A stretch of DNA of 64,000 nt from Longimicrobium sp. GTDB lineage: Bacteria; Gemmatimonadota; Gemmatimonadetes; Longimicrobiales; Longimicrobiaceae. Shown in pieces: positions 5,169 through 62,000 of this stretch. Made by a program: the position numbers and the translations under genes. Each line of letters begins with the position of its first letter. Positions within the stretch are counted from its first letter, which is position 1. Below the pieces are notes generated by a model, which was not told the DNA's origin, searched no databases, and worked only from the letters and a program-made list of their open reading frames with translations. The stretch spans positions 21,191 to 85,190 of the forward strand of contig DASUYB010000175.1 in NCBI GenBank assembly GCA_036377595.1, given 5' to 3'.

Positions 5169-5389
5169 CACGCCGCCGCGGCGCCGGCGGCGCCCGTCCG
5201 CAGGCTCAGGGGACGCATGTCGGTCCAGACCTCCTTCACGTAGGCCAGGCACTCGTCCTTCGAGCCGGGGGTGCCCACGGCCCGCCACCCCAGGGGGATC
5301 TCGCGGTCCGCCAGCCAGATCGAGTACTGCTCCTCGTGGTTCACGAGGACGATGTACGTGCGGGTATCCTCGAACGTCTCCGTCGACAT
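5168..5389 (-). CDS. mbtH: MbtH-like protein (NRPS adenylation-domain chaperone)
   Basis: 73 aa: [60 protein letters not shown]. This carries the hallmark N-x-E-x-QYS-x-W and W..V...S..ECL.Y....WTDMRP signature. A GGAG lies 9 nt upstream of the ATG. Confidence 0.93.
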
Positions 5390-11782: not shown

Positions 11783-11851
11783 AGTCCTAAGTCCTGAGTC
11801 CTAAGTCCTAAGTGGTTCGTTTTCTGTCACTTAGGACTTAGGACTTGGGAC

Positions 11852-38188: not shown

Positions 38189-38210
38189 GCCTGGGGTACC
38201 GGGGAAAAAT

Positions 38211-38350: not shown

Positions 38351-38448
38351 AAAGCGCACCGGCGGTCGAGGTGACCGTGGTGGACGGCGGCGTGGTCAGC
38401 CCCCGGCCCCGCGGGGAGAGAGGCACGCCTTGGATCCCGCGGAAGAAC

Positions 38449-38588: not shown

Positions 38589-38741
38589 GAGACGGTGACG
38601 TCTCCTGCCGATGTCTCCACGGAGTCATCGGGGTCATCGGAGGGATCCGTGGGAGGCAGTCCCTCCGTCGACTTCGATGACTCCGCGTGATACCGGATTG
38701 AACGAATGGCTGTGCGTTCGATTGGATCTGATGAGAATAGT

Positions 38742-38815
38742 CTCACACGGAGGGAACGGAGGAAACGGAGGGTTTGCTCATCATCCCTCCGTTTCCTCCG
38801 TTCCCTCCGTGTGAG
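38742..38815 (-). terminator. Perfect 31-bp-arm palindrome (12-nt loop) 63 nt downstream of the ACP gene; candidate terminator or RNA-stability hairpin
   Basis: CTCACACGGAGGGAACGGAGGAAACGGAGGG at 38742-38772. Loop tttgctcatcat at 38773-38784. CCCTCCGTTTCCTCCGTTCCCTCCGTGTGAG at 38785-38815, with no mismatches. The arms contain three AACGGAGG-like direct repeats. No clean U-tract follows. Confidence 0.4.
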
Positions 38816-38877
38816 TCATTCTGTTGGGTCAGATCGCCCGATCAATCCGCAGATTCGGTGTGAGGCTGGCGGCGCGG

Positions 38878-39141
38878 TCAGCCCTGCAGCGACACCACGG
38901 CCGCGCGGAGCGTCGCCGGCGTCCTGAAGGTCTCCGGCATCAGCAGGTCGTCGGTGAACGTCACGCCGAACTCGGTCTCCACCTCCAGCAGCAGGTCGAT
39001 GATCCGCATGGAGTCGAGGCCCAGCGTCTTCAGCTCGGTGTCCATCGGCACCTCGAGCGCGGCGGGGTGGCCCAGCACGCGGCGGATGGCCTTGAGCACG
39101 CGGGCGTCGGTGGCGTCGGCGGTCAGCAGAGTGGCATCCAT
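38878..39141 (-). CDS. Free-standing acyl carrier protein
   Basis: 87 aa with LKTLGLDSMRIIDLLLEVETEFGV, a phosphopantetheine-site DS motif in a typical helix II context. The ATG lies 1 nt after the upstream stop. Confidence 0.88.
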   Translation of the reverse strand: MDATLLTADATDARVLKAIRRVLGHPAALEVPMDTELKTLGLDSMRIIDLLLEVETEFGVTFTDDLLMPETFRTPATLRAAVVSLQG

Positions 39142-45200: not shown

Positions 45201-48200
45201 CGACCGAGGCGATGCGCTGGCGGGGAACGCCGTCCACCTGCACGAAGCGGGTGCGCAGCGCCTCGTGCCGCGCCACGATCCGGGCCAGCGCCCGCTCCAG
45301 CGCGACCTCGTCCAGCTCGCCGCGGAGACGGGTCGCGTGGAAGATGCGGTACGCCCAGGCGTCGGCGCCCAGCGAATCCAGGAACCACATCCGCTGCTGC
45401 GCGTAGCTCAGCGGCGGATGCACACCGTGCACGCGCGGGGTGATCGCCGGCAGCGCGCTGCGGCGCGAGGACTCGGCGCCGCGCGCGAAGTCGGCCAGCA
45501 CAGGGCGCTCGAACAGGTCCAGCAGCGACACCTCGGTGCCCAGCGCCTCACGGACGCGGGAGATGACCTGCACCGCCAGCAGCGAGTGGCCGCCCAGCTC
45601 GAAGAAGCCGTCGTTGCGCCCCACGCGCTCCACGCCCAGCAGCTCCGCCCAGATGGCGGCCACCGCGGCCTCGGCCTCGCTCACCGGCGCCTCGTAGGCG
45701 CGGCGGGCGTAGGCGTCCTCGGCCGGCGCGGGAAGCGCGCGGCGGTCCAGCTTGCCGGTGGGGGTCAGTGGCAGGCTCTCCAGCCGCACGTAGGCGGCGG
45801 GCACCATGTGCTCGGGGAGCCGCTCGCCCAGGTGCGCCCGCAGCGCCTCGGCCCCGGCGTCGGCGCCCAGGTAGTACGCCACCAGGCGCTGGTCGCCCGG
45901 CGCATCCTCGCGCGCCGCCACCACGGCCTCGCGCACGGAGGGGTGCTCGGCCAGGCGCGCCTCGATCTCGCCCAGCTCCACCCGGAAGCCGCGCACCTTC
46001 ACCTGGAAGTCGTTGCGGCCCAGGAACTCCAGCATCCCGTCGGGCCGCCAGCGCGCCAGGTCGCCCGTGCGGTACAGGCGCGCGCCGGGCTCGCGCCCGA
46101 ACGGATCGGGGACGAAGCGCTCGGCCGTCAGCGCGGCCCGGCCCAGGTATCCACGCGCCACGCTGGCGCCGCCGATGTACAGCTCGCCGGCCACGCCGAC
46201 GGGCACGGGCTGGCCGGAGCGGTCGAGGAGATACGTGCGGCTGTTGGCCATCGGGCGGCCGATCGGCACCCGCGCGTCCGTCATCCCCCCACAGTCCAGC
46301 GCGGCGACGGCCGTGGCGGCCTCGGACGGGCCGTAGAGGTTGTGGATGGTGGCGCCGGAGAGCCGCTCGCGCGACCGCGCCAGCAGCGAGCCGGGGAGCA
46401 CGTCGCCGCCGCACAGCACGCGGCGCACCCTGGCCAGGCTCGCCACCTCGGGACGGTCGACCAGCAGCTGCAGGAGCGCGGGGACGGCATTCAGCGCGGT
46501 GACGCCCTCGCGCCGCATCAGCCGCACGAGCGCCTCGGGGTCGGGGCGCGCGCCCTCGGCCAGCACGATCCGCGCGCCCACCGTCAGCGGCCACACCAGC
46601 TCGCGGATCGAGCCGTCGAAGCTGAGCGTGGTGTGGCTCAGCATCGTCTCGTCCTGACCCAGCCGCCACGCGGCCTGCGCCCACGACACGCGCTGCACCA
46701 CGTTGCCGTGCGTGTTCATCACCCCCTTGGGGCGCCCGGTGGAGCCCGAGGTGTAGATCACGTACGCCAGATTCTCCGGCCCCACTCCCGCCCGCGCCGG
46801 GTTCGACTCCGGCCCGTCCGCCGCCTCGCCAATGGAGAGGACGGGGACGTCCAGCCCGGCAACGAGATCCGCCATCGTCCCGCGCTGGGCGGCGTCGGCC
46901 AGCACGCACGCCGGCGCGCTGTCCTCGAGCATGTAGCGCAGCCGGTCCTCGGGATACGCCGGGTCCAGCGGCACGTACGCCCCGCCGGCCTTCAGCACGC
47001 CGAGCATCGCCACCACCATCTCGGGGCTGCGCTCCAGGCAGACGGCCACGCGGACGTCCGGGCCCACGCCCCGCGCCGCGAGGTGGTGCGCCACCCGGTT
47101 CGCCCGGCGGTTCAGCTCGGCGTACGTCACCTCGTCGTCGTGGAACACCAGCGCCACCGCGTCGGGCGTGCGCTCCGCCTGGCGCTCGACCAGCTCGTGG
47201 ATGGTCGCCTCGCGCGGATACTCCATCTCCGTGGCGTTCCACTCGTCCACCACGAACGAGCGCTCGGCGCCGGAAAGGAGCGCCAGCTCGTCCACGCGCA
47301 GGGTGTCGTCGGCGGCCATCTGCTGCAGCGCGCGGCGCAGGTAGCCCGCGTAGCGCCGCACCGTGCCCTCGTCGAACAGCGCGGTGGCGTACTCCAGCTC
47401 GCCCTCGATGCGGCCGCTCTCCTCCTCGAGCGAGAGGGAGAGGTCGAACTTGGCCATCACCGCCGACGTGCCGGGGAGCTGCTGCATCTCCAGCCCCGGG
47501 AACTCCAGCGCGCCGCCGGGATTGTTCTGCAGTGAGAGCATCACCTGGAAGAGCGGGGCGTGCGCCACGCTGCGCGCGGGATCGACCACCTCCACCACGC
47601 GCTCGAAGGGGATGTCCTGGTTGGCCTGCGCGCCCAGCGAGCGCGCCTTCACCCGCCCCAGCAGCTCCGCCACCGTCGGCGAGCCCGAGACGTCCACGCG
47701 CAGGGCGAGGGTGTTGACGAAGAAGCCGATCAGCCCCTCGATCTCGCGCCGCCCACGGTTGGCCGAGGGCGAGCCGACGACGACGTCCGCCTGGCCGGAG
47801 AGACGGCTGAGGACGGCCGCCCACCCGGCCAGCAGCGTCATGTACAGCGTCGTCCCGTGGCGCCGGGAGAGCGCCTTCAGCGCCGCGGTCAGCGTCTCGT
47901 CCAGCTCCACGCGGACGGACGCGCCGGTGTGGTCCATCCGCGCCGGGCGAGGACGGTCCGCCGGCAGCTCCAGCAGCGCCGGCGCGCCGGCCAGCGCCTG
48001 GCGCCAGTACGACGCCTGCGCCTCGATCACCTCGCCCTCGATCCAGCGGCGCTGCCAGACGGCGTAGTCCGCGTACTGGATCGGCAGCGGCGGAAGGGGA
48101 TTCTCCCCGCCCGCGCGGAAGGCGGCGTAGAGCGCGCCAAGCTCGCGGCTGAACACCCCCGACGACCATCCGTCGGAGACGATGTGGTGCATGGTGATGA

Positions 48201-51200
48201 GGAGGACGTGGTCGTCCGCCGCCATGCGGATGAGCCGGCCGCGGATCAGCGGCCCGTGCTCCAGGTCGAACGGCGCCTCGGCCTCGTCCTCCATCAGTCC
48301 CGCCAGCGTCTCCTCCGCCGCGGGATCAGCCGTCAGGTCGTGCTCGATGAGAGCGAAACGCGTCTCGGATGCGATGCGCTGCACCGGCGCGCCGTCCACC
48401 TGCGCGAACGACGTGCGCAGCACCTCGTGCCGCGCGACCAGCGCATCGAGCGCGCGCACCAGCGCGTCGCGGTCCAGCTCGCCACGCAGGCGGCGGCGGC
48501 GCGGCACGTGGTAGGTGCTCCCCAGGTTGCCCAGCTGCTCCAGGAACCAGAGCCGCTGCTGCGCGAAGGAGAGGGGCAGATCGGATTCCCGCTCGGCGAC
48601 CTCGATCGCGGGAAGCTCGGCGTGCGCCGCGGCGTCGACCGCGCGCGCGAAGTCGGAAAGGACGGGGCGCTCGAAGACGTCGCGCAGCGCCACCTCGGCA
48701 CCCAGCGCCTCGCGCACGCGACTGGTCACCTGCACCGCGAGCAGCGAGTGGCCGCCCAGGTCGAAGAAGCTGTCGTGCCGCCCCACGCGCTCGGTGCCCA
48801 GCACCTCGCACCAGATCCCCGCCAGCACCTCCTCGGTCGTCCCCACCGGCGGCTCGTAGGCGCGGCGCGCGTAGGCGTCCTCGGCCGGCGCGGGAAGCGC
48901 GCGGCGGTCCACCTTGCCGCTGGAGCCGAGCGGGATGTGGTCCAGCCACACGTAGGCGGCGGGGACCATGTGCTCCGGCAGCCGCGCGGCCAGGTGCGCC
49001 CGCAGCGCGGCGACGTCGACGTCCTCGGCGCCGACGCAGTAGGCGACCAGGCGCTGGTCGCCCGGGCCATCCCTGCGGGCGATGACGACGGCCTCGCACA
49101 CCGACGGGTGCTCGAGGAGGCGCGACTGGATCTCGCCCAGCTCCACGCGGAAGCCGCGGATCTTCACCTGGAAGTCGGCGCGCCCCAGGAAGTCGAGCGC
49201 GCCGTCGGCGCGCCAGCGGCCCAGGTCGCCCGTGCGGTACAGGCGCGCGCCCGGCTCGCGGCCGAACGGATCGGGGACGAAGCGCTCGGCGGTCAGCTCG
49301 GGCCGGTTCAGGTAGCCGCGCGCCACCTGCACGCCGCCGATGTAGACCTCGCCCGGCACGCCGGCGGGGACGGGGTCGCCGCGCCGGTCGAGCACGTAGA
49401 CGCGGTTGTTGTCCAGCGGCCGGCCGATGGGGACGATCGCCCCGGAGTTCCCCGCCTCGTAGAGGATCGAGGTGGAGACGATCGACGCCTCGGTGGCGCC
49501 GTACATGTTGCGCAGGCTCACGCCCAGGCGGCCGCGGAACTCCTCGGCCAGCTCGGCGGGAAGCGCGTCGCCGGCGCAGTTCACGTTGCGCAGCGAGGCC
49601 AGCTCGCCGAAGCGGGGATGCCGCAGGAGGGCGCGCAGCAGCTCGGGCACCACCCCCAGCGAGGTGATCCCGTGGCGCGCCACCAGGTCGATCAGCTCCG
49701 ACGGGTCCATCGCCTCGCGCTCGCGCGGCAGCACCAGGCGGGCGCCGGCCAGCAGCGGAACGAAGAAGGCGGGAACCGACGCGTCGAAGGCCACCGGCCA
49801 GCGCTGCAGGATCCGGTCGTCGGGCGACGTCACCCAGACCTTCCGCATCCAGCCGAAGAAGTTCACCACGCCCCGGTGCGGGACGAGCACGCCCTTCGGA
49901 TGCCCCGTCGAGCCGGAGGTATAGATGACGTACGCCAGGTGGTCGGGGGTCAGCCCCGCCGGCTGCGGATCCCAGTCCGGTCCGTTCGCCTCCGCGCCGC
50001 CGCCGAGGGCGACGACGGGAATCTCCATCTCCGCGAAGAGCGACTCGGCCGCCACCCGCTGCCCGGCGTGCGTCACCACCGCCGCGGGCGCGCTGTCGGC
50101 CAGCATGAAGCGCAGCCGGTCCTCGGGATACGCCGGGTCCAGCGGCACGTACGCACCGCCGGCCTTCAGCACGCCGAGCAGCGCCACCACTGTCTCCAGG
50201 CTGCGCTCCATGCAGATGGCCACGCGGCCGTCCGGCCCCACGCCGCGCGCGGCGAGATCGTGCGCCAGGCGGTTCGCCCGGCGATTCAGCTCGCCGTAGG
50301 TGATCGTCTCGCCCTCGAACTCCACGGCGACGACGTCCGGCGTGCGCTCCGCCTGCCGCTCGAAGAGCTGATGGATGCACGCGTCGGACGCGTACTCGGC
50401 TTCCGTGGCGTTCCACTCCTCCACCACCTCCCGCCGCTCGGCGTCGGAGAGGAGCGTCAGCTCGTCCACGCGCAGGCGGTCGTCGGCTACCATCTGCCGC
50501 AGCACGCGGCGCAGGTAGCCCAGGTAGCGCACCACCGTGGCCTCGTCGAACAGCGCGGTGGCGTACTGCAGCTCGCCCGCGATGCGGCTGGCGCCCTCCT
50601 CCAGCGACAGCGCCAGGTCGAACTTGGCGGTGGCGCCGGAGACGGACGGCAGCGGCGCCGGCTCCAGCCCCGGCAGCTCCGTCGTGCCCAGGTCGTTGGT
50701 CTGCCAGACGAACATCACCTGGAAGAGCGGCGTGTGCGCCAGGCTGCGCACCGGGTCGACCAGCTCCACCACGCGCTCGAAGGGGATGTCCTGGTTCTGC
50801 TGCGCCTCGAGCGTGGCCGCCTTCACCTGCCGCAGCAGCTCGGCCACGGTGGGCGTGTCGGAGAGGTCGACGCGCAGCGCCAGCGTGTTGACGAAGAAGC
50901 CGATCAGCCCCTCCACCTCGCGCCGCCCGCGGTCGGCCGACGGCGAGCCGACGACGACGTCGCCCTGGCCCGAGAGACGGCCGAGCGTGGCCGCCCACCC
51001 GGCCAGCAGCGTCATGAACAGCGTGGTGCCGTGGCGCAGCGACAGCGCCTTCAGCCCCGCCGTCAGCTCCTCGTCCAGCTCCACCCACACCGAGGCGCCC
51101 GCGTGGTCCATCCGCGCGGGACGCGGCCGATCCGTGGGGAGCTCGAGGAGCGCCGGCGCGCCGGCCAGCTTCCGCTGCCAGTACGCCGCCTGGGTCTCCA

Positions 51201-54200
51201 GCACCTCGCCCTCGATCCAGCGCCGCTGCCACGCGGCGTAGTCGGCGTACTGGATGGGGAGGGGGGAGAGGGGATTCGGCTCGCCCGCGCGGAAGGCGGC
51301 GTAGAGCGCGCCCAGCTCGCGGCCGAAGACGTCCGACGACCAGCCGTCGAAGATGATGTGGTGCACGGTGACCAGCAGGACGTGGTCGTCCGGCGCCATG
51401 CGGATCAGCCGGCCGCGCACCAGCGGGCCCTGCTCCAGGTCGAAGCGCGCCGTGGCCTCCTCCGCCAGCACCCGTACCAGCGCGTCCTCGGCGCCGGCGT
51501 CGCGGGTCAGGTCGATCTCCACCAGCGGGAAGCGGCTCTCCGCCGCCGGCGCGATGCGCTGCACCGGCGCGCCGTCCACCCGCGGGAAGGTGGTCCGCAG
51601 CGTCTCGTGCCGGGCGACCAGTGCGTCCAGCGCGCGCACCAGCGCGTCGCGGTCCAGCGCGCCGCGCAGACGGCGGCGCCAGCGCATCTGGTACGCGCTC
51701 CCCAGCCCGCCGAACTGCTCCAGGAACCAGAGCCGCTGCTGCCCGAACGACAGCGGCAGGTCGGCCCCGCGCTCGACCGCCTCGATGCGGGCGAGCTCGG
51801 TGTGGACCGCGTCTCCGAGCGCGCGGGTGAAGTCGGCCAGCACGGGGCGCTCGAAGAGGGCGCGCAGAGGAATCTCCGCCTGCAGCGCCTCGCGCACGCG
51901 GGTGATGGCCTGCACCGCCAGCAGCGAGTGCCCGCCCAGCTCGAAGAAGTGGTCGTTGCGGCCGACGCGGTCGACGCCGAGCACCTCGGCCCAGATCTCC
52001 GCCAGCGCCTCCTCCGTCTCCCCCATCGGGGCGACGAACTCGCGCGTGGACCAGGCGTCGCTCTCCGGCGCGGGCAGCGCCTTGCGGTCCGCCTTCCCGC
52101 TGGGGGTCATCGGCAGCGCCTCCAGCCGCACGAAGGCGGCGGGGACCATGTACTCCGGCAGGCGCGCGGCCAGGTGCTCGCGCAGCGCGGCGGCATCCAC
52201 CTCGCCCTCGCCCGCCCAGTACGCCACGAGACGCTTCTCGCCCGGCGCGTCCTCGCGCGCGACGACCACGGTCTCGCGCACGTCGGGGTGGTCGGCCAGC
52301 TTCGCCTCGATCTCGCCCAGCTCGATGCGGAAGCCGCGGATCTTCACCTGGAAGTCGGTGCGGCCCAGGAACTCCAGCGTCCCGTCTGCCCGCCAGCGCG
52401 CCAGGTCGCCCGTGCGGTACAGCCGCGCGCCGGGCTCGCCCGAGAACGGGTCGGCGACGAACTTCTCCGCCGTCAGCTCGGGGCGGTTCAGGTAGCCACG
52501 CGCCACCTGGCCGCCGCCCACGTGGATCTCGCCCGCCACGCCCACGGGCGCGGGGCGGCCCTGCTCGTCGAGCACGTACACGCGCGCATGCAGCACCGGC
52601 CGGCCGATCGAGCGCCAGCTCTGCGGGTCGCGCGTGACCTCCTGGAGCGTCGCGTTGACCGTGGCCTCGGTGGGGCCGTAGAGGTTGCGCAGCTCGGGGA
52701 GATAGCCGCCGCGGCGGAACCAGGCCGCCAGCATCGCGGGCTCCACGGCCTCGCCGCCGGTCTCCACCAGGCGCACGCAGGGGGGGATGGCCACGCCCTC
52801 CTCGCCCACCAGCAGCTGCCAGAAGCGCACGGGGAGGTCGGTCACCGTCACCCCGTGGCGCTCGCAGCGGGCCCAGAAGGTCTCGGCGCTCTCCAGCCAG
52901 GCGTCGCTGCGCAGCACCGACGCGGCGCCGGACAGGATCGCCCCGAAGATCTGCTCCACCGACGCGTCGAAGGTCACCGGCGCGAACTGCAGCACGCGGT
53001 CGCCGGGGCCGATCCCCAGTCCCGCCTGCAGCCCCTCCACCTGCATGCACAGCGAGCGGTGCTCGACCATCACCCCCTTGGGCGTGCCGGTGGAGCCCGA
53101 GGTGTAGATCACGTACGCCACGTGCCGCGGCGTCAGCCCCGCGCGGGCGGGATTGACGTCAGGCTCGCCGGCAAACGCCTCCGGCGCGGAGAGGTCGACC
53201 AGCGGCACGCCGAAGCCGGCCAGCGCGTCCGCGAGGTGCGACTGCGTCAGCACCAGCGCGGGGGCGGCGTCCTGCAGCACGGCGGCGATGCGCTCGGCGG
53301 GATGGCTGGGGTCCAGCGGCACGTACGCGCCGCCGGCCTTCAGCACGCCCAGCAGCGCCACCATCATCTCCGCCCCGCGCTCCACGCACAGGGCGACGCG
53401 GACGTCCGGCCCCACGCCGCGCGCGGCCAGGTGGTGCGCCAGGCGGTTGGCGCGCCGGTTCAGCTCGCCGTACGTCAGCTCCACCTCGCCGGCGACGACG
53501 GCGATCGCCTCGGGGGCGCGCGCGGCGTGCTCCTCGAACAGGTCGGGGGCGCAGCGCTCGCGCGCGGGCGCCATCTCCCTGCGGTTCCACGCGTCGACGA
53601 CGAGCCGACGCTCGCTCTCCGGCAGCACGTCGACCGCGGCGACGGCCGTCTCCGGCGCCGTCTCCAGCGCGTCGACCAGCCGCTCCAGCGCGGCGTGCAT
53701 CAGCTCGGAGATCCGCGCCGGATCGATCGAGACGTCGACCTGCGGCGTCAGCGTGAAGCCCTCGCCCCAGTCGTCCACCGACAGCGTGAGCGGATAGTTG
53801 GTCCGCTCCTCGCCGCGCAGCATGCGGATCCCGTCCCACGCCTGCCGGCTCTCCGCCTCGTCCACGCGGATGCCGCCCGAGCCGCCGTCGCCGTAGCCGT
53901 GGCGGTAGTTGAGCAGGGTGGTGAAGAGCGGGGTGGGCGCCTGCACGCCGCTGCAGCGCTGCGCCAGCGCCAGCGACGCGTGCTCGTGCCGCAGCAGCCG
54001 CGCGAGGGTGCGATGCGTGTCGCGGACGGCGTCCTCCACGCCCTGCCCGTCGACGCGCACGCGGACGGGAAGGGTGTTGATGAACACACCGAGCACGCGG
54101 TCGGCGCCCTCGCCGCCTTGCATGCGGCCGAAGAGGAGGGTGCCGAACACCACGTCCGGCTGCCCCGACGCGCGCGACAGCACCTGCGCCCAGGCGACGT

Positions 54201-57200
54201 GGAAGAGGCTGGCCGCGCTCACCCCCAGCGCGCGCGCCCGGGCGCGCAGCCGGAGCGCGAGGTCGGAGTCCAGGTGACGCTCGGCCTCGTGCGTCTCCGA
54301 CCCGTCGCTCAGCACGTCCATCAGGCCGAACGGCGCGGTGGGCTCGGCCACGTCGGCCAGCATCTCGCGGAAGAAGCGCTCGTGCTCGGCCGGCGTCAGC
54401 CCGGCGCGCGCCTGCGCCACGAAGTTGCGGAACGGCAGCGGCGCGGGAAGCTCGCCCGCGCGCCCCAGCAGGTGCGCCTGCACCTCGGCCTGCAGCACCT
54501 CGAGCGTGGTGTGGTCGCTGACCAGGTGGTGCATGCGCAGCAACAGCAGCCACCCGCCCTCGCCGTCCTGGGCGATGTAGGCGTGCAGCATGGGCGCGCG
54601 GCGCACGTCGATCCGGCTCTGCCGCAGGCTGCTCGCCCACAGCCGGCCGGCCGCGTCGCCCTCCGCCCCGTCGAGCTGAATCTCGTCGACGGGGAGATCG
54701 GCCGAGCGCCAGACGACCTGCACCGGCTCGCGCAGCCCCTCCCACACCACGCCGGTGCGGAAGATGTCGTGGCGGGCGATGATGGCCCGCAGCGCGCCCA
54801 GGTACGCGTCGAGCCGCTCGCGGCCGGCGAAGCCGAGGAGGCTCACCAGCAGGTAGGGATCGTCGTCGCCGTGGCTCAGCAGGTGGTGGAAGAGGATGCC
54901 TTCCTGCAGCGGGGCCAGCGGGTAGATGTCCTGCACGTTGGCGGCGCCGCCCTCCACGCCCGCGACGATGCGGTCGATCTCCCCCTGGCTCAGCTCCACC
55001 AGCGGCAGCATCTCCGGGCGGATGCGATCGCACCCGGCGGGGATGGCGTTGGCGGGGACGACCACCTCGGCGGATTCGCCGCTGACCAGCGCGGCCAGCT
55101 CGGCCAGCGTGGGCGCGGTGAACAGCGCGGGGATGTCGGCGTGCAGCCCGTGCGGCCGCATCCGCGCGATCAGCGTCACCACCAGCAGCGAGTGGCCGCC
55201 CAGCTCGAAGAAGTTGTCGTGCCGGCCCACGCGCTCCACGCCCAGCACCTCGGCCCAGATCTCCGCCAGCGTCTCCTCGGTCTCACCCACCGGCGGCTCG
55301 TAGGCGCGCCGCGCGTACGCGTCCGCGCCGGGGGCGGGAAGCGCGCGGCGGTCGACCTTGCCGTTCTGCGTGAGCGGAAGCGCCTCCAGCCGCACGTAGG
55401 CGGCGGGGACCATGTGCTCCGGCAGCCCGGCCAGGTGCGCGCGCAACTCGTCGATCCCGATCTCCGGGCCCGCGTAGTACGCCACCAGGCGCTTATCGCC
55501 CGGCGAGTCCTCGCGCGCCACGACGACGGCCTCGCGCACGTCGGGATGGTCGGCGAGGCGCGCCTCGATCTCGCCCAGCTCGATGCGGAAGCCGCGGATC
55601 TTCACCTGGAAGTCGTTGCGGCCCAGGTACTCCAGCATCCCGTCCGCCCGCCAGCGCGCCAGGTCGCCGGTGCGGTACAGCCGCGCGCCCACCTTGCCGG
55701 AGAACGCGTCGGGGACGAAGCGCTCCGCCGTCAGCTCGGGACGGTTCAGGTAGCCGCGCGCCAGCTGCACGCCGCCGATGTGGATCTCGCCCGTGACGCC
55801 CACCGGCACCGGCTCACCCGAGGCGTCCAGCACGTAGATGCGCGAGTTGGCGATCGGACGACCGATCGGCACCGATGCCGCACGATCGCGCTCCGCGTCG
55901 AAGCGGTGGATCATGCAGCCGACGGTCGCCTCGGTCGGCCCGTACTCGTTGTAGATCTCCGCACCGCCCAGCGCGCGCTGCGCGGCTTCGGCCACGGCCG
56001 TCTTCAGGTCCTCGCCGCCGAGGATCAGCGCGCCCAGGCGGCGCGTCTCCTCATCCCCCTGCTGCAGCAGCGCGAGGTGCGCCGGCGTCAGCTTAGCGAC
56101 GTCGACCCGGTCCTCCCCGATCACCCGCAGGACGGGGAGATCGGAAGCCTCTCCCTCGCGGTACACCACGATCGTCCCGCCCGTGATGAGGGGGACGTAG
56201 ATCGAGGTGACGGTGAGGTCGAACGCGATCGACGAGTAGAGCGGGAAGGTGCTCGCCTGGCCGCCAGCGTAGGTGTTCGCCGCCCAGGTGGCGTAGTGCG
56301 TGAGACCGCGATGGGGGACGACGACGCCCTTGGGACGGCCGGTGGAGCCAGAGGTGTAGATGACGTACGCCGCGTGCTCGGGAGTGACCGCGCGCGCCGG
56401 GTTCGTCTCCGCCTGATCGGCCCACGCCTCCGCATCGGCATCGACGCGAACCAGCGGCAGGGTGGCGTCCGCGAAGCGCTCCGGCAGCGAGCCGTGCGTC
56501 AGCAGCAGCGCGGGCGCGCTGTCGGCGAGCATGTACTGCAGGCGCTCGTCGGGGTAGCCGGGATCCATCGGCACGTACGCGCCTCCGGCCTTGATGACGG
56601 CGAGCAGCGCCACCACCATCTCCAGGCTGCGCTCCATGCATACGGCCACCGGCACGTCCGGCCCGACGCCCATCCCCGCGAGGTGGTGCGCGAGGCGGTT
56701 CGCGCGGGCGTTCAGCTCCGCGTAGGTCAGCGACTCGCCCTCGAACTCCGCGGCGACGGCGTGCGGCGTGCGCTCCACCTGCCGCTCGAACAGCTCGTGC
56801 ACGCAGCGGTGGCCCGGGAACGGCGAGTCCGTCGCGTTCCACTCCTCCACCACCTGCCGCCGCTCGCCGTCCGAGAGCAGCGCCAGCTCGTCCACGCGCA
56901 GCGTGTCGTCCGCCACCATCTGCTCGAGGACGCGGCGGAAGTAGCCCACGTGCCGCAGCACCGTCGCCTCGTCGAACAGCGCGGTGGCGTACTCCAGCCG
57001 GCCGGAGATGCGGTCGTTCCCCTCTTCGAGCGAGAGGTCCAGGTCGAACTTCGCCGTCGTCCCCGAAACCGCGGGGAGCGCCGCGGCCTCAACGCCGGGA
57101 AGCTCCAGCGGCGCGCCGTCGTTGTTGTGCCAGGTGAACATCACCTGGAAGAGCGGCGTGTGCGCCAGGTTGCGCACGGGATCGGCGATCTCGACGACCC

Positions 57201-58830
57201 GCTCGAAGGGGATGTCCTGGTTCCGCTGCGCGCCCAGCGTGCCGACCTTGGCCTGCGCCAGCAGCTGCGCCACCGTGGGCCGCGCGGAGAGGTCGAAGCG
57301 CAGCGCCAGCGTGTTGACGAAGAAGCCGATCAGCCCCTCGATCTCGCGCCGCCCGCGGTTGGCCGTCGGCGCGCCGATGACCACGTCGCGCTGGCCCGAG
57401 AGCCGGCTCAGCACCGTCGCCCATCCCGCCAGCAGCGTCATGAAGAGCGTGGTGCCGTGACGGCGGCCCAGCGAGCGCAGCCCCTCCGTCAGCGCCGCGT
57501 CGAACTCCAGCGACACCGAGCCGCCTCGATGGTCCATCCGCAACGGACGCGGGCGGTCGGTGGGGAGCTCGAGCAGCGCGGGCGCGCCGGCCAGCGCCTC
57601 GCGCCAGTACGACGCCTGCGCCTCGAGCACATCGCCCTCGACGAAGCCACGCTGCCAGACGGCGTAGTCCGCGTACTGGACGGGGAGCGGGAGAAGGGGA
57701 TCGGGCTGCCCCGCGCGGAACGCGGCGTACAGCGCGCCCAGCTCGCGGCTGAACACGCCCAGCGACCACCCGTCCGAGACGATGTGGTGCATGGTGACGA
57801 GGAGGACGTGGTCGTCCTCGGCCATGCGCACCAGCCGGCCGCGGAGCAGCGGGCCGTGCTCCAGGTCGAACGGCGCGACGGCCTCCTCGGCCGTCAGCCG
57901 CGCCAGCGTCTCCTCCGCGGCCGCGTCGCCACGGAGATCGTGCTCGGCCAGCGCGAAGCCGCCTTCCAGCGCCGGCGCGATACGCTGCACCGGCGCGCCG
58001 TCCTCGAGCGCGAACGTGGTCCGCAGCGCCTCGTGGCGCGCGACCAGCGTGTCGAGCGCGCGAAGCAGGGCGTCGCGGTCCAGCGCGCCGCGCAGGCGGA
58101 AGCCGCGCGGGATGTGGTAGGTGCCGCCCAGGTTGCCGAGCTGTTCCAGGAACCACAGCCGCTGCTGCGCGAAGGAGAGCGGCAGGTCGCCGTCCCGCTC
58201 CACCGTCTCGATCTCCGAGAACGCGGAGGGCGGCGTCCGCTCCACCATCGCGGCGAAGTCGGCCAGGACGGGGCAGAGGAAGAGGACCTGCGGCGGAAGG
58301 TCGCGCCCCAGCGCGTCGCGCACGCGCGAAAGCACGCGCACGGCCAGCAGCGACTGACCGCCGTTCTCGAAGAAGTTGTCGTGCCGGCCGACGCGCTCCA
58401 TCCCCAGCACCTCGGCCCAGATCCCCGCCAGCACCTGCTCCGTCTCGCCGACGGGAGGCTCGTAGCCGCGGGTGACCCAGGCGTCGTCGCCGGGCTCGGG
58501 GAGCGCGCCGAGGTCCACGGAGCCGTCTTCCGCGCGCGGGAAGGCGTCCAGGCGCATGTAGCCGCCCGGCACCATGTACTCGGGCAGGTGCCCCAGCATG
58601 TGCGCGCGGAGGCTCTCCCCTGCCACTTCGACGCCGGGCTCGGCCAGGTAGTAGGCGATCAGGCCCTTCTCGCGGGCCGCTAGCCTGCGGTTGTCCACCA
58701 CCGCGTCACGGACCGCGGGATGCTGGACGAGCGCGGCCCGGATCCGCTCGAGGTCGACCTGGCGGCCTCGGACGTTCCGCACCCATTCCAGCGCCCGGGC
58801 AAGGCCCGCGGTCTCTTGTTCGCTCTTCAT
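42214..58830 (-). CDS. Non-ribosomal peptide synthetase 'NRPS-A', 5538 aa: (degenerate A-subdomain)-T / C-A-T / (E/C)-A-T / C-A-T / C-A-T / C-A-T plus a short C-terminal docking tail
   Basis: One uninterrupted ORF with an ATG start. Five A3 cores lie at ~56328, 53075, 49893, 46724 and 43555. There are six carrier motifs. There are four LCL-like C domains (HHI[VI][SF]DGWS) and one [15 protein letters not shown]-type domain. There is no TE. The protein ends ...[28 protein letters not shown]. Confidence 0.97.
42217..45465 (-). other. NRPS-A module 5: divergent C, then A-T and a docking tail
   Basis: The C domain starts [17 protein letters not shown] at ~45377-45420 and carries [10 protein letters not shown]3 core (SGSTGKPKG) at ~43555-43598. 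T Ser at 42412-42414. Hand code DVRTLGMVAK (Arg at position 239; unassigned). Confidence 0.78.
45466..48630 (-). other. NRPS-A module 4: C-A-T
   Basis: C motif at ~48545-48585. A3 core at ~46724-46768. T Ser at 45583-45585. Hand code DGRNLGLTAK (Arg at position 239; unassigned). Confidence 0.78.
48631..51810 (-). other. NRPS-A module 3: C-A-T
   Basis: C motif ([12 protein letters not shown]) at ~51725-51762. A3 core (SGSTGHPKG) at ~49893-49937. T Ser at 48745-48747 (FFDLGGHSL). Hand code DAPGNAMIVK (unassigned). A5 reads NMYGATE rather than GPTE. Confidence 0.78.
51811..55065 (-). other. NRPS-A module 2: E/C-like condensation domain, then A-T
   Basis: [25 protein letters not shown] at ~54855-54927. 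The N-terminal HH motif is offset by one residue from HH[IL]xxxxGD. The second motif is [10 protein letters not shown]3 core at ~53075-53120. T Ser at 51925-51927. Hand code DAEDEGLVNK (unassigned). Confidence 0.72.
55066..58200 (-). other. NRPS-A module 1: C-A-T, predicted Asn
   Basis: C motif at ~58147-58190. A3 core at ~56328-56370. T Ser at 55189-55191. Hand code DLTKIGEVGK against the canonical Asn code DLTKLGEVGK. Confidence 0.8.
58201..58830 (-). other. NRPS-A N-terminal loading region: relic of an A-domain C-terminal subdomain (aa 1-112) plus carrier domain T0 (aa ~125-198)
   Basis: The region aligns to the A8-A10 part of the other A domains but is degenerate. [12 protein letters not shown] replaces [24 protein letters not shown] replaces PNGKIDRRALP, so the invariant A10 Lys is Ser (codon 58519-58521). 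T0 reads [10 protein letters not shown], with its Ser at 58351-58353. Confidence 0.8.
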
Positions 58831-58881
58831 GCACCCACCGTTGATTGCCGGCCCGCCAGCCCTTCGGCTCGCGCGCGGATC

Positions 58882-58910
58882 GGGCGGACGCCGCGGCGTC
58901 CGCCCCTTTT
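58882..58910 (+). terminator. Plus-strand-oriented terminator-like hairpin (GC stem followed by CTTTT) in the 5' leader of NRPS-A
   Basis: GGGCGGACGC-cg-GCGTCCGCCC at 58882-58905, followed by CTTTT at 58906-58910. No plus-strand gene reads into it. On the minus strand it is preceded by AAAA and lacks a U-tract. Confidence 0.2.
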
Positions 58911-58994
58911 AGTCCTAAGTCCTGGGTCCTAAGTCCTAAGTGCTTCGTCCTTGGTCACTTAGGACTTAGGACTTGGGACTTAGGACTTTGGACT
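58911..58994. repeat. Heptamer palindromic element, copy 3: 32-nt arms, a 13-nt loop, and one extra degenerate unit
   Basis: Left arm AGTCCTAAGTCCTGGGTCCTAAGTCCTAAGTG at 58911-58942. Loop CTTCGTCCTTGGT at 58943-58955. Right arm CACTTAGGACTTAGGACTTGGGACTTAGGACT at 58956-58987. TTGGACT at 58988-58994. It lies between the PKS stop (59044) and the NRPS-A ATG (58830). Confidence 0.95.
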
Positions 58995-59043
58995 CGTCGT
59001 TGTTCGTCCAGCGGCGGGAGACGAATCCCCCGCCGATCCCCCG

Positions 59044-62000
59044 TTACTCCCCGACCAGCACCTGGTGAACCGCCTCGACGTGCGGGAAGCGCATGGCCTC
59101 GGAGTGCGCGCATGCCACCGGCAGCACCTCGACGTCGGTGTTCAGCGCGCGCTTCCACCCGTACGAGTCGGCGTGCGGCTCGCCCAGGCCCCACTCGCCC
59201 AGCCGGTTCATGATCGAGAACGGCCCCAGGCCGCACCGGACCAGCTTCACCTTCGTCCCGTTCAGGGAGCGGGGCGCCGCGTAGCCGGCGAGGTTCGAGC
59301 GGTTGCTGTAGTCGTCCACCGTCTTGTCGACGGAGGCGGGCTCCAGCGACGCGCCGCGGATGCGGTCGTCGAGGTAGCGGTCCACCACCGCCAGCGCCTG
59401 CTCCATGTCCGCCTCGGCGCCCTCGAACTCGTCGAGCACGCGCGCGGGGACGGCCCCGTCGGGGGCCAGCGCCTCGAGCACGGCGGTCTTGATGAAGAGC
59501 CGCTTGAGCTCGTCCTCGTTCTGCGCCTCGGCCAGGCTCACGTAGGCGAAGGAGTCGACCAGCACCAGCAGGCTCACCTCGTGTCCCGCCTGGATCAACT
59601 GGTTCGCGACCTCGACCGCCACCGAGCCGCCGAAGGAGAAGCCCACCAGGCGGTAGGGCCCGCGCGGCTCCGTCTGCACGATCACCTTCGCGTACTCGGC
59701 GGCCTGGCGGACGAAGTCGTGCCGCACGTCGTCCGCCGCCCGGTCGCCCGGGCTGCCGGAGAGGACGTACACGCTGTATCCACGTCCCTCGATCGACGCG
59801 AGGTCGGTGAAGTCGTAGACGCTGTCGGCGATGCCGGGGACGCAGAACACCGGCGGCCCGGCCTTCTCGCCCACGGCCACCGCGACGGCCGTCGAAGGCG
59901 CCGGCTGCGCGTCGTCGCCCCCGCGCGCGGCCACGATCTGCTCGGCGAGGAAGACGGCGAGCCGCGCCACCGTCGGGTGCGCGAAGAAGCTCCCCGCGCG
60001 GATGGGGATTCCCACGCCGCGCTGCACGTTGTTGCGCAGCTCCGTCATCATCAGCGAGTCGATCCCCGCGTCGACGAAGTTGGTCTCGCGCTTGACGTTG
60101 GCGGTGGGCACGCCCAGCACCTTGGCCACCTCGACCTGCAGGAACTCCTCGACCACCCCGGGAAGCTCGTCCGCCGCCGAGCGCGCGATGCGCCCGGGCC
60201 ACTCGTCCGCGCCGCCCGCGGCGGCGCCGGGAGCCTCCTCCAGCAGCTCGAAGAGCGGGTCGGCCGCCGCCTTCGCGCGCCGCGAGCGGAGCTTGGCGAC
60301 GACGGCCTCGGTGCGGCCCTCCACCAGCAGCCGCTCCAGCGCCTGCTGGCCCTCTTCCTTGCCGACGAGACGGTGCTTGCCGGTGAGCCCGAGCGAGGCC
60401 GCCATCCCCTCGCCCTCCCACGCGCCCCAGTTGATGGAGAGCGCCGGGAGCCCCGCGCCCGCGCGGTGGCGGGCCAGGCCGTCCATGAAGGCGTTGGCCG
60501 CGGCGTAGTTCCCCTGCCCCGCGCCGTCGATCACCGCCGAGGTCGACGAGAAGCAGGCGAACCAGCCGATCCCGCGGTCCTTCGTCAGCTCGTGCAGCAC
60601 CAGCGTGCCGTCGACCTTGGCGCGGAACACGGTCTCGAAGCGCTCGCGGTCGAGGTGGCGGAGGATGCCGTCGCTCAGCACGCCCGCGCAGTGGAAGACG
60701 CCGGCGACCGGCTCGGCGCGCTCGAGCACCGCGGCCATGTCGTCCATCGACGCCACGTCCGCGTTCTCGACCATCACCTCCACGCCCGCCTCGCGCAGTT
60801 TCTCCACCCGCTCCAGCGCGCTCCCCGCCGGCATGCGGCGCGACAGCAGCACCAGCCGCCTGGCGCCGCGCGCGGCCAGCAGCTCGGCCACGTGCAGCCC
60901 CAGCGCGCCCAGCCCGCCGGTGACCACGCAGGCCGCGTCCGCCGGCACCGACAGCGTGCCGTCGCCCGCGCCCGCGCCGTCGAGGGAGACGATCACCTTG
61001 CCGACGCTGCGCCCCGAGGCCAGCCAGCGGAAGGCGTCGACCGCCTCCTTCAGCGCGAACTCCTTGGCCGGCAGCGGGCGGAAGTCGCCGCGCTCGAAGC
61101 CGTCCAGCACGTGCCCCATCAGGCGGCGGTACTGGTGGTCGCCGCCGGCCTCGCCCTCGCCGATCTCCAGCGCGGTGTAGGCCACGTCGGGGCGGTAGGT
61201 CCGCGCCTCCTCGTCGCTCCAGATCCCCAGCTTGCCGATCTCCACGAAGCGGCCGCCCTCGGCCATCACGTCGAAGCCGGCCTGGATGAAGTCGCCGGTG
61301 AGGGAGTTCAGCACGATGTCGACGCCCGCGCCGCCCGTGGCCTCGCGGATCGCGTCCACGAAGCGGGGGTCGCGCGAGTCGACGATGTGCTCGATCCCCT
61401 GCGACCGCAGGAAGCCCCACTTGGGCATGCTGGCCGAGGCGAACACCTCGGCGCCCACGGCCTGGGCGATCTGCACCGCGGCCTGCCCCACGCCGCCCGC
61501 GGCCGCGTGGATCAGCACCCGGTCGCCCGCCTTGATCCGCGCCACGTCGTGCAGCGCGTACCAGGCGGTCATGAACACCGTCGGCAGCGCCGCCGCGTCG
61601 CCCCACCCCAGGATCGCGGGCTTCTTCACCACCTCGTGCTCGCGCAGGACGTGGTGGCTGGCCAGGCAGCCGCGCGAGTAGGCGATCACCTCGTCGCCCG
61701 CGGCCACGCTCGTGACCGCGCTTCCCACGCGGGTGACGACGCCCGCGCCCTCGAAGCCGAAGCGCAGGTCCTGCGGCTCGCAGACGGGGATCTTCCCGAG
61801 GACGAAGAGGCACTCCTTGAAGTTCAGCGGGGCCGCCTTGATCTCCACCTCCACCTCGTCCGGGGCCAGCACCGGGATCACCGCGCCCGGCGCCGGGGCC
61901 AGGTAGAGGTTGTCGAAGGTGCCGAACGCGCGGGTCTGCAGCTGGTAGCGGCCGTCGGGACGCTCGAGCCCGGCGTTCGCGCTCGCGAGGCGATCGAGCC

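What the first reader, a model, noticed from the sequence alone, without database searches (positions are those of the whole stretch)
58237..58830. NRPS-A begins with a fossil A-domain C-terminal subdomain (A10 lysine lost) and an orphan carrier domain
The first ~112 aa align with the A8-A10 region of the cluster's other A domains, but the N-terminal ~400-aa A core is absent and the key motifs have decayed. [12 protein letters not shown] stands where [13 protein letters not shown] is expected. [10 protein letters not shown] stands where NGKIDRRALP is expected, so the invariant lysine is now Ser at 58519-58521. The following carrier keeps its serine in an unusual GGQSL context (58351-58353) and feeds directly into C1. 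This T domain cannot be self-loaded. It must be primed in trans, and the candidates encoded nearby are the PKS-TE, the FkbH-like loader, or transfer from the free-standing ACP. It also looks like the scar of a module truncation at the 5' end of the gene.
Basis: partly seen in the sequence, partly recalled or inferred. Interest (0 to 1): 0.7.

Follow-up and report, generated by a model that had tools for sequence, protein, structure and literature searches.

The report
Dead adenylation remnant plus orphan carrier
A giant peptide-synthetase gene begins with a decayed leftover of an amino-acid-activating domain followed by an intact carrier domain that some other enzyme must load; this is real, but it is a fairly ordinary quirk of such assembly lines.

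Summary
NRPS-A (42214-58830, minus strand, 5538 aa) starts with 19 unrelated residues. Next comes a remnant of an adenylation C-terminal subdomain (aa 20-112), then an intact carrier domain T0 (Ser160) and an ordinary elongation-type condensation domain C1. There is no A core. The gene cannot be extended upstream, because the 213-bp spacer has stops in all three frames.

The remnant is 44% identical to the cluster's 13 intact copies, which are 74% identical to each other. It keeps only 26 of 49 near-invariant positions and has lost the A10 lysine (Ser104). T0 keeps 29 of 31. So the remnant is catalytically dead and under relaxed constraint, while T0 still looks selected.

T0 must be loaded in trans. 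The loader was not identified. My ranking:
- An intact A domain of the same line, with A1 the prime candidate, about 0.35.
- Glyceryl from FkbH and the free ACP, about 0.2.
- PKS acyl chain via the thioesterase, about 0.15.
- A loader outside the window, about 0.15.
- T0 unused, about 0.1.

Homologues of the FkbH-like enzyme sit next to free ACPs, which argues against FkbH loading T0 directly. Truncated or inactive A domains complemented in trans are already documented. This is a new member of a known kind, of modest interest. No orthologue of the N-terminus was found.

The parts
42214..58830 (-). NRPS-A gene (5538 aa): [Asub*]-T0-C1-A1-T1-C'-A2-T2-C-A3-T3-C-A4-T4-C-A5-T5
   Evidence: ORF list; GC3 0.96; domain map by phmmer with in-cluster seeds
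58774..58830 (-). aa 1-19 ([19 protein letters not shown]): new N-terminus with no detectable homology to A domains; predicted helix at aa 4-15
   Evidence: No significant DNA or protein similarity to the A7-A8 region of the 13 paralogues against shuffles. AF2 secondary structure, pLDDT 66-70
58495..58773 (-). Asub*: degenerate adenylation C-terminal subdomain (aa 20-112, A8-A10 region)
   Evidence: blastp E 1e-23..1e-30 to 13 intact copies; Pfam AMP-binding_C 28.2 bits vs 46-52 for intact copies; 44% vs 74% identity and 26/49 conserved columns kept; dN 0.49 vs 0.18
58519..58521 (-). Ser104 codon at the position of the A10 catalytic lysine
   Evidence: Alignment. In a sample of related NRPSs, K occupies this position in 701 of 723 regex matches to an A10-like pattern
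58456..58494 (-). A-T linker (aa 113-125). The LPxP motif (L110-P111-E112-P113) spans the end of Asub* and the first linker residue and is retained
   Evidence: Alignment: P111 and P113 are invariant; 3/3 conserved linker columns kept
58231..58455 (-). T0: carrier (PCP) domain, aa 126-200
   Evidence: Pfam PP-binding 48.6 bits; 29/31 near-invariant columns kept, changed only at L156N and H159Q; four-helix model with pLDDT >90
58351..58353 (-). Ser160 codon, the phosphopantetheine attachment site in GGQSL
   Evidence: Alignment; Q at this position in 4/854 T domains of the sample
56881..58200 (-). C1: ordinary elongation-type condensation domain (aa 211-650), HHIVSDG intact
   Evidence: 72-78% identical to eight of the nine other C domains of the same type in the cluster and 62% to the ninth (A_C4462); ~25% to the three C' domains; dN and dS like the other C domains
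55321..56850 (-). A1: first intact adenylation domain, the nearest candidate cis/trans loader of T0
   Evidence: Domain map. The loading role is inferred only
58831..59043 (.). Spacer between the PKS stop and the NRPS-A start. Contains a palindromic AGTCCTA heptamer array (58911-58994) and a perfect GC palindrome (58882-58905). Stops in all frames
59047..59853 (-). Thioesterase domain ending the upstream fully reducing PKS (..AT-DH-ER-KR-ACP-TE). GFSFGG serine and C-terminal His present
   Evidence: Pfam; sequence; weak matches to NocB, fengycin, EntF and Pks13 TEs
38878..39141 (-). Free-standing 87-aa ACP, the second carrier without a cis loader
   Evidence: Pfam PP-binding; 32% identical to the ACP encoded next to an FkbH homologue
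9949..11760 (-). Discrete FkbH-family enzyme (603 aa)
   Evidence: TIGR01686 302 bits, cut-off 147; 94% identical orthologue at the same position in L067
41430..42206 (-). Sfp-type phosphopantetheinyl transferase immediately downstream of NRPS-A
   Evidence: Pfam 4PPT_N + ACPS

Best explanation
**Tier 1. My confidence figure refers to this tier.**
The 5' end of NRPS-A encodes a non-catalytic remnant of an adenylation domain. Only the C-terminal subdomain survives, and its catalytic motifs have decayed. The remnant is fused through a preserved LPxP linker to a carrier domain (T0) that is still under selection, and T0 donates to an ordinary elongation-type condensation domain (C1). The arrangement is what remains of a former A-T-C module junction of the same paralogue family as the 13 intact modules. 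The A core was lost and a new 19-residue N-terminus with a start codon was acquired. The remnant probably still folds and is translated only because it lies between the start codon and T0. At most it acts as a structural cap for T0. Since T0 has no A domain of its own, another enzyme must load it. In effect this is an A-less initiation module.

**Tier 2. Inferred, not shown: which enzyme loads T0.**
- Most likely an intact A domain of the same assembly line aminoacylates T0. A1, 460 residues downstream in the same polypeptide, is the prime candidate (about 0.35). T0 keeps the canonical PCP surface of its sisters, and C1 is an unmodified elongation C domain that expects an aminoacyl or peptidyl donor.
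- Glyceryl from FkbH and the free ACP: about 0.2.
- PKS-made acyl chain passed on by the thioesterase: about 0.15.
- A loader encoded outside the window: about 0.15.
- T0 idle: about 0.1.
For: **Shown.**
- aa 20-130 are homologous to the A8-A10 region plus linker of all 13 intact A domains. The Pfam AMP-binding_C hit is above threshold but about 20 bits weaker than for intact copies.
- There is no A core, and the 213-bp spacer with stops in all frames leaves no room for one.
- A10 Lys is replaced by Ser, and A8 is degenerate.
- The remnant keeps 26 of 49 near-invariant columns and T0 keeps 29 of 31 (Fisher p = 1.3e-4).
- dN to the paralogues is 0.49 for the remnant, 0.32 for T0 and 0.18 for C1. 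The corresponding values among intact copies are 0.18, 0.22 and 0.17.
- C1 is 62-78% identical to the other nine C domains of its type (72-78% for eight of them) and has an intact HHxxxDG.
- The AF2 model (pLDDT 89) gives an Asub plus PCP didomain that matches LgrA, DhbF, SrfA-C and PheA structures.
- Codon-position GC of aa 20-104 (0.82/0.45/0.92) is gene-like.
- A PPTase gene lies directly downstream.
- The window holds no stand-alone A domain or FAAL.

**From the literature.**
- FbsE carries a truncated A domain, and its carriers are predicted to be loaded in trans by the FbsF A domain (PMC11291136).
- Trans-complementation of missing or inactive A domains is described for syringomycin, albicidin, cystobactamid, ramoplanin and enduracidin (PMC8949500).
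Against: - No loader was identified, and nothing here tests loading.
- Translation from ATG 58830 is inferred. In-frame alternative starts exist, for example GTG at codon 105. If one is used, most of the remnant would be 5' leader.
- No orthologue of the N-terminus was found, so conservation of the remnant across species could not be tested.
- The remnant's omega (0.72) is raised but not 1, so a residual structural or docking role is not excluded.
- The AF2 model rests on an alignment dominated by intact subdomains, so it is biased towards the canonical fold.
- The only two changes at conserved T0 positions (L156N, H159Q) flank the attachment serine. This could reflect adaptation to a loader that is not an A domain.
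Confidence: 0.7

Rival explanations
1. T0 is a glycerate-loading site. The discrete FkbH-family enzyme takes the place of the lost A domain and puts a glyceryl unit on T0, either directly or after first loading the free ACP. C1 then joins that unit to amino acid 1. The PKS fatty acid might be esterified onto the glycerate, as in the vioprolide and cystomanamide logic.
For: - A bona fide FkbH domain is present (TIGR01686, 302 bits).
- It is conserved at the same cluster position in a 92-96% identical relative.
- T0 and the free ACP are the only carriers without a cis loader.
- The two changes at conserved T0 positions flank the serine.
Against: - In two homologous loci the FkbH-like gene is followed immediately by a free 81-82 aa ACP.
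- One of those ACPs (from L068) resembles the window's free ACP (32% identity) and not T0; the other (from L069) gave no meaningful hit to either.
- The FkbH gene lies 47 kb from T0.
- C1 is neither a starter nor an ester-forming type. It is 72-78% identical to most of the elongation C domains.
- No shuttle enzyme is visible.
- FkbH and the ACP could instead prime the PKS, whose 5' end lies outside the window.
Confidence: 0.2
2. T0 receives the fatty acyl chain made by the upstream fully reducing PKS. The terminal thioesterase would act as a transferase, or the released acid would be re-activated by a ligase encoded outside the window. NRPS-A would then be a lipo-initiation module.
For: - The PKS (..AT-DH-ER-KR-ACP-TE) ends 213 bp upstream on the same strand.
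- The TE has its catalytic Ser and His.
- A T-C start suits an acyl-primed line.
Against: - The TE looks like a generic releasing thioesterase with only weak matches.
- I know of no precedent for a TE transferring to a carrier thiol (from my own knowledge).
- The PKS has no C-terminal docking tail.
- C1 is not a starter-type C domain.
- The window contains no FAAL.
- The adjacency passes through a repeat element that occurs several times in the genome.
Confidence: 0.15
3. The whole Asub*-T0 (and perhaps C1) stretch is vestigial. A1-T1 is the real initiation module, and T0 only looks intact.
For: - The remnant shows that this end of the gene has suffered loss.
- Gene conversion among the very similar C domains could keep C1 looking functional without selection.
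Against: - T0 keeps 29 of 31 conserved positions although its dN (0.32) and dS (0.50) to the paralogues are high. This indicates purifying selection on T0 itself and not recent conversion.
- The serine is intact.
Confidence: 0.1
4. The remnant has been repurposed as a docking or adaptor pseudo-domain that recruits the trans-acting loader (an A domain, FkbH/ACP or the TE) to T0.
For: - No frameshift or stop. The structural A9 motif (LPEYMVP) and the LPxP linker are kept while catalytic residues are lost.
- A confident Asub-like model.
- Omega 0.72, below 1.
- A predicted N-terminal helix.
Against: - The reading frame must be kept anyway for T0 to be translated.
- 23 of 49 conserved positions are changed.
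- GC3 is the lowest of the 14 copies.
- There is no orthologue to show conservation.
- The model is biased by its alignment.
Confidence: 0.12
5. Artefact. An assembly error or frameshift has cut a normal A domain, or the A core is supplied by a separate protein (a split A domain).
For: - Repetitive NRPS modules and the repeated heptamer element invite misassembly.
- Database gene models that begin inside A domains are common, about 10 of 150 in the sample.
Against: - Those database cases keep perfect motifs. Here the motifs are decayed and the sequence is unique, 44% identical to any paralogue, so it is not a collapsed repeat.
- Sequence upstream of aa 19 has no A-domain similarity in any frame.
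- Without the A10 Lys and an intact A8, the subdomain could not support adenylation even with a trans A core (established ANL enzymology, from my own knowledge).
Confidence: 0.03

Closest known systems
Fimsbactin synthetase FbsE (Acinetobacter): truncated A domain, with carriers predicted to be loaded in trans by the FbsF A domain (PMC11291136)
   Same: An NRPS protein keeps a truncated, non-functional A-domain piece next to a carrier that depends on another A domain.
   Different: - In FbsE the loader is identified and the truncated domain is internal.
- Here the remnant is only the C-terminal subdomain, it sits at the extreme N-terminus of the first NRPS, and the loader is unknown.
A-less or inactive-A modules complemented in trans: syringomycin SyrE module 9 with SyrB1/SyrC; albicidin and cystobactamid; ramoplanin and enduracidin (PMC8949500)
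   Same: A carrier in the main line lacks a working cis A domain and is served by a separate enzyme. The syringomycin system uses a shuttle between carriers, which is analogous to a possible transfer from the free ACP to T0.
   Different: - Those systems encode a stand-alone A-T (or A) partner in the cluster. None is visible in this window.
- Those modules are elongation or termination modules, not the initiation position.
FkbH-containing NRPS modules of vioprolide and cystomanamide (PMC8949500)
   Same: An FkbH-family enzyme is present in an NRPS/PKS cluster, a carrier lacks an A domain, and a fatty-acid-producing PKS part lies nearby.
   Different: - There FkbH is a domain fused in the module in place of A, and in vioprolide an ester-bond-forming C domain follows.
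- Here FkbH is a discrete protein 47 kb away, its homologues pair with free ACPs, and C1 is an ordinary elongation C domain.
One A domain serving several carriers, e.g. yersiniabactin HMWP2 (my own knowledge, not checked here)
   Same: This is the mechanism proposed as most likely: a neighbouring A domain aminoacylates an extra carrier.
   Different: It has been shown biochemically for that system. Here it is only inferred.

Membership tests
Functional NRPS adenylation domain (ANL superfamily) | N-terminal A core of about 400 aa with motifs A1-A7 | tested here: not met
   The protein starts 19 aa before the A8-equivalent position. phmmer with an A-core seed finds nothing before aa 661. The spacer has stops in all frames.
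Functional NRPS adenylation domain (ANL superfamily) | A8 hinge motif [20 protein letters not shown] | tested here: not met
   The GRxD hinge is absent and the rest reads [13 protein letters not shown].
Functional NRPS adenylation domain (ANL superfamily) | A10 catalytic lysine (NGKxDR) | tested here: not met
   The motif reads DGSVDL, with Ser104 at the Lys position. K occupies this position in 701 of 723 regex matches to an A10-like pattern in the sampled NRPSs.
Functional NRPS adenylation domain (ANL superfamily) | C-terminal subdomain fold or profile (AMP-binding_C) | tested here: met
   Pfam 28.2 bits, above the 24.5 cut-off. The AF2 model superposes on the PheA, CytC1 and THR1 subdomains at 1.2-1.8 A over about 95-100 columns. 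The model is biased by its alignment.
Peptidyl/acyl carrier domain (PP-binding) | Profile match above threshold and a conserved serine in GGxS | tested here: met
   PF00550 48.6 bits; Ser160 in GGQSL; 29/31 conserved columns kept.
Peptidyl/acyl carrier domain (PP-binding) | Phosphopantetheinylated and carrying a substrate | not testable with these tools
   There is only context: an Sfp-type PPTase gene at 41430-42206.
A-less or truncated-A NRPS module complemented in trans | A carrier in the assembly line without a functional cis A domain | tested here: met
A-less or truncated-A NRPS module complemented in trans | An identifiable trans-acting loader (a stand-alone A or A-T, or a neighbouring A domain shown to load it) | tested here: inconclusive
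   The 64-kb window has no stand-alone A domain or FAAL. It has 13 in-line A domains and one FkbH. The sequence upstream of the PKS is not available.
FkbH-loaded NRPS module (vioprolide/cystomanamide type) | FkbH domain fused in the module in place of the A domain | tested here: not met
   FkbH is a separate 603-aa protein at 9949-11760. The position before T0 is occupied by an A-subdomain remnant.
FkbH-loaded NRPS module (vioprolide/cystomanamide type) | The FkbH enzyme partners with the NRPS T domain | tested here: inconclusive
   In homologous loci the partner appears to be an adjacent free ACP. One of those ACPs aligns with the window's free ACP and not with T0. There is no biochemical test.
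Lipo-initiation (starter C domain) module | An N-terminal starter-type C domain distinct from elongation C domains | tested here: not met
   C1 is preceded by T0. It is 72-78% identical to eight of the nine other elongation C domains of its type and 62% to the ninth.

The most novel reading that the evidence does not exclude
The remnant is not junk. It would be an A-subdomain pseudo-domain retained as an adaptor that presents T0 to a loader that is not an A domain: the discrete FkbH/ACP pair or the PKS thioesterase. That would be a new kind of initiation module. It may have arisen when short-period palindromic repeat elements caused deletion of the A core. Such elements sit in this genome's intergenic spacers, and in relatives they sit in-frame in the loop just before the A-domain hinge.
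Probability: 0.1. Interest if true: 0.6.

Novelty: new member of a known kind. Interest (0 to 1): 0.3.

Why it matters
- **Product prediction.** This otherwise uncharacterised 13-module Longimicrobium-type cluster should carry one more building block or an N-cap beyond the 13 amino acids. Automated annotation would miss this, or would wrongly call an A domain here.
- **Module decay.** The locus captures an intermediate stage of module decay. The catalytic half is gone, the mobile subdomain is drifting, and the carrier is preserved. This is useful for understanding how assembly lines shrink and re-wire, and where natural cut points lie (the core/subdomain hinge).
- **Engineering.** It offers an Asub-T-C start that tolerates loss of the A core.
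- **Limits.** None of this overturns current understanding. Trans-loaded carriers beside dead A domains are well documented.

Tried and rejected
1. **Orthologue searches for the N-terminus all failed.**
   - Protein word-index search with aa 1-215: best hit 56% identity, all generic A-T fragments.
   - Scan of GTDB genomes with aa 1-330: 54 loci, mostly Longimicrobium, every match starting at aa 19 or later. The frame upstream of the match is long and open, or runs to the contig edge, with A7-A8 motifs visible wherever the sequence reaches them.
   - Scan of JGI metagenomes: at most 47% identity.
   - Exhaustive HMMER search with aa 1-130. The ranking was dominated by multi-module NRPSs with summed scores, so it was uninformative for orthology.
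2. **PKS ACP-TE as an anchor for orthologous clusters.** Only two distant hits.
3. **A close relative exists but does not reach the region.** L067 (GCA_034680565.1) is 92-96% identical in nucleotides. Its 22-kb contig covers only the tail of NRPS-B through the FMO gene, so the NRPS-A start could not be compared.
4. **Residual homology ('scar') upstream of aa 19.** None above shuffles.
5. **The aminotransferase as an alpha-oxoamine synthase.** I considered this as a possible chain-release or loader enzyme and rejected it. It is a class I aminotransferase closest to GntC and VioD. Together with a 2-ketoarginine-methyltransferase-like enzyme it looks like a beta-methyl amino acid cassette.
6. **GGQSL as a marker of unusual loading.** Rejected.
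7. **Promoter and terminator scan of the spacer.** Nothing usable on the coding strand.
8. **Database proteins that begin inside A domains** (P0153, P0180, P0227, P0259). They keep perfect motifs and are probably gene-call or contig artefacts, so they are not analogues.
Full report
**1. What is at the locus**

The finding lies at the 5' end of a 5538-aa ORF on the minus strand, 42214..58830, starting at ATG 58830. The window is 73% G+C. Real genes show a strong codon-position signature, with GC3 about 0.96, and this ORF has it.

Upstream of the ATG the frame stays open for only 26 codons and holds no start codon. All three frames of the 213-bp spacer contain stops. The spacer separates the gene from a PKS that runs off the window. 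The visible part of that PKS is AT-DH-ER-KR-ACP-TE. There is therefore no room for an A core upstream.

**2. Check of the observation**

Pfam places three domains:

| Domain | Residues | Score |
|---|---|---|
| AMP-binding_C | aa 32-101 | 28.2 bits (cut-off 24.5) |
| PP-binding | aa 133-196 | 48.6 bits |
| Condensation | from aa 214 | — |

Three intact copies from the same cluster score 46-52 bits for AMP-binding_C and 55-61 bits for PP-binding.

blastp of aa 1-130 against the two NRPS proteins of the window matches the A8-A10 region plus linker of all 13 intact A domains. The match is at 40-50% identity, with E 1e-23 to 1e-30, and always begins at query residue 20.

- [13 protein letters not shown] has become [13 protein letters not shown].
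- [12 protein letters not shown] has become [12 protein letters not shown], with Ser104 at 58519-58521.
- GGHSL has become GGQSL, with Ser160 at 58351-58353.

**3. Decay of the remnant compared with T0 and C1**

| Measure | Remnant (aa 20-112) | T0 | C1 |
|---|---|---|---|
| Mean identity to the intact copies | 44% | 59% | 62-78% |
| Mean identity among the intact copies | 74% (minimum 64%) | 63% | — |
| Columns conserved in at least 12 of 13 intact copies that are kept | 26 of 49 | 29 of 31 | — |
| dN to paralogues / dN among intact copies | 0.49 / 0.18 | 0.32 / 0.22 | 0.18 / 0.17 |

- The two T0 changes are L156N and H159Q.
- The contrast in conserved columns is significant (Fisher p = 1.3e-4).
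- Omega for the remnant is 0.72, against 0.50 among intact copies.
- C1 has an intact HHIVSDG. It is 72-78% identical to eight of the nine other C domains of its type, 62% to the ninth (A_C4462), and about 25% to the three divergent C' domains.

There is thus a gradient along the protein: a drifting subdomain, a constrained carrier, and a normal condensation domain.

GC3 of the first 112 codons is 0.90, in the lowest 0.85% of windows across the two NRPS genes. It still falls within the range seen at other gene starts. The codon-position pattern of aa 20-104 remains gene-like.

The structural A9 motif (LPEYMVP) and the LPxP A-T linker motif are retained. An AF2 model (pLDDT 89) gives an Asub plus PCP didomain. 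It matches LgrA, DhbF and SrfA-C, and it matches the PheA subdomain at 1.5 A. The caveat is that the input alignment consists mostly of intact subdomains.

**4. Boundary and origin**

Homology to A domains starts at about aa 19-20, a few residues after the core/subdomain hinge (GRxD). Neither aa 1-19 nor the 78 nt upstream resemble the A7-A8 region of any paralogue beyond shuffled controls. The T0-C1 linker ([21 protein letters not shown]) is the same as the linkers at internal T-C junctions. The N-terminus is therefore what remains of an A-T-C junction of the same module family, with a new 19-residue head.

It is not a collapsed repeat or a simple gene-calling artefact. Database NRPS models that begin inside an A domain keep perfect motifs, whereas this one is decayed and unique in sequence.

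The AGTCCTA heptamer palindrome in the spacer (58911-58994) is a general intergenic element of this genome. It also occurs at 7035-7195 and 11783-11859.

**5. Cluster context**

| Element | Architecture or identity |
|---|---|
| NRPS-A | [Asub*]-T0-C1-A1-T1-C'-A2-T2-C-A3-T3-C-A4-T4-C-A5-T5 |
| NRPS-B | C-A-T-C'-A-T-C-A-T-C'-A-T-(C-A-T)x4-TE |
| Between the two NRPS genes | Sfp-type PPTase; methyltransferase; class I aminotransferase; free 87-aa ACP |
| Downstream of NRPS-B | Discrete FkbH-family enzyme (TIGR01686, 302 bits); MacB/ABC exporters; MbtH-like gene; MFS; DUF3179; FMO |

- NRPS-A carries a C-terminal tail and NRPS-B an N-terminal tail that look like docking sequences, so A feeds B.
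- The methyltransferase is closest to the 2-ketoarginine MT, and the aminotransferase is closest to GntC and VioD. Both score below their family cut-offs. Together they look like a beta-methyl amino acid cassette.
- No stand-alone A domain or FAAL is visible.
- The carriers without a cis loader are T0 and the free ACP.
- The closest relatives are Longimicrobium and Longimicrobiaceae MAGs.

**6. Who loads T0**

This could not be tested.

*For an intact A domain, with A1 nearest:*
- T0 retains the canonical PCP features of its sisters.
- C1 is an unmodified elongation C domain.
- The mechanism is documented for FbsE (PMC11291136) and other systems (PMC8949500).

*For FkbH:*
- FkbH can replace A domains in NRPS modules (PMC8949500).
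- The enzyme is conserved in the 92-96% identical relative L067.

*Against direct FkbH loading:*
- In two homologous loci the FkbH-like gene is followed at once by a free ACP.
- One of those ACPs resembles the window's free ACP (32% identity) and shows no hit to T0.

*For the PKS route:*
- Only adjacency and a catalytically competent TE support it.
- The TE looks like a generic releasing enzyme, and C1 is not a starter C domain.

*An idle T0* is disfavoured by the conservation pattern.

My ranking is:
- An A domain, about 0.35.
- FkbH and the ACP, about 0.2.
- The PKS acyl chain, about 0.15.
- A loader outside the window, about 0.15.
- T0 idle, about 0.1.

**7. Comparison with known systems, and verdict**

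The region fails three defining features of a functional A domain: the core, A8 and the A10 Lys. It meets only the subdomain-profile criterion. It meets the sequence criteria for a carrier domain.

It fits the known category of carriers that sit beside missing, truncated or inactive A domains and are served in trans. The differences are that only the subdomain survives, that it sits at the very start of the first NRPS, and that no dedicated partner is visible.

No orthologue of the N-terminus exists in the collections searched. Whether the remnant is conserved, which would indicate an adaptor, or decaying, which would indicate a fossil, stays open.

The finding is real and correctly described. 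Its mechanistic part is unproven. It is of modest interest and is a new member of a known kind.

Noticed in passing
window 7035-7195, 11783-11859, 58911-58994: Palindromic arrays of the heptamer AGTCCTA/TAGGACT form long hairpins at three intergenic sites. There are 31 matches against 0 expected. One array overlaps the NRPS-B stop codon. The element was found otherwise only in the orthologous contig L067. It looks like a lineage-specific REP-like or MITE-like element.
   Followed up: partly
L003:9890-9970, L018:5247-5332; also L005, L016, L033: In several Longimicrobium MAGs, A domains carry an in-frame insertion just before the A8 hinge. It replaces the usual YRTGDxxRWxxDG loop. In L018 the insertion consists of 8-nt tandem repeats forming a 37-nt-arm palindrome. 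The same kind of short-period palindromic element therefore sits inside NRPS coding sequence, close to the position where NRPS-A's homology to A domains begins.
   Followed up: partly
window 5171-5389 (-): An MbtH-like gene (73 aa, 97% identical to the one in L067) is hidden inside the mechanically listed MFS ORF 3435..5288. The true MFS start is probably near 5174.
   Followed up: partly
window 39143-41433 (-): A methyltransferase (closest to the 2-ketoarginine MT) and a class I aminotransferase (closest to GntC and VioD), both below family cut-offs, look like a beta-methyl amino acid supply cassette. They are flanked by a PPTase and a free ACP. An identical 3.6-kb contig exists in Logan run SRR25158381.
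   Followed up: partly
window 53560-55068, and NRPS-B aa 1080-1560 and 3212-3700: Three divergent C' domains carry an N-terminal extension ([31 protein letters not shown]). They are only about 25% identical to the other ten C domains and match the SolG-type NRPS model strongly. The T domains in front of them form their own subtype ([15 protein letters not shown]). The cluster has no E domains, so the main C type may be dual E/C.
   Followed up: no
window 38189-38877 and 5390-6247: Two stretches of roughly 690 and 860 bp have lower, flat GC and no coding periodicity or Pfam hits. The first lies between the free ACP and NRPS-B and may be a promoter or regulatory region that splits the cluster into two operons.
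   Followed up: no
L067 (GCA_034680565.1, contig JAXOUH010037477.1): A 92-96% identical orthologous contig covers the tail of NRPS-B, FkbH, MacB, ABC, MbtH, MFS, DUF3179 and FMO in the same order. The 3' half of the cluster, including FkbH, is therefore conserved in a second strain.
   Followed up: partly
L068:10001-12141, L069:1550-3605: 600-aa FkbH-like (HAD-IIIC) proteins that are 53-57% identical to the window's enzyme are widespread; more than 7000 hits have E below 1e-30. In both loci inspected they sit in polysaccharide-type loci, each followed immediately by an 81-82 aa ACP (GWDSL/NWDSL motif). A MaoC-dehydratase/SDR protein lies directly after the ACP in L069 and one gene further on, on the opposite strand, in L068.
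   Followed up: partly
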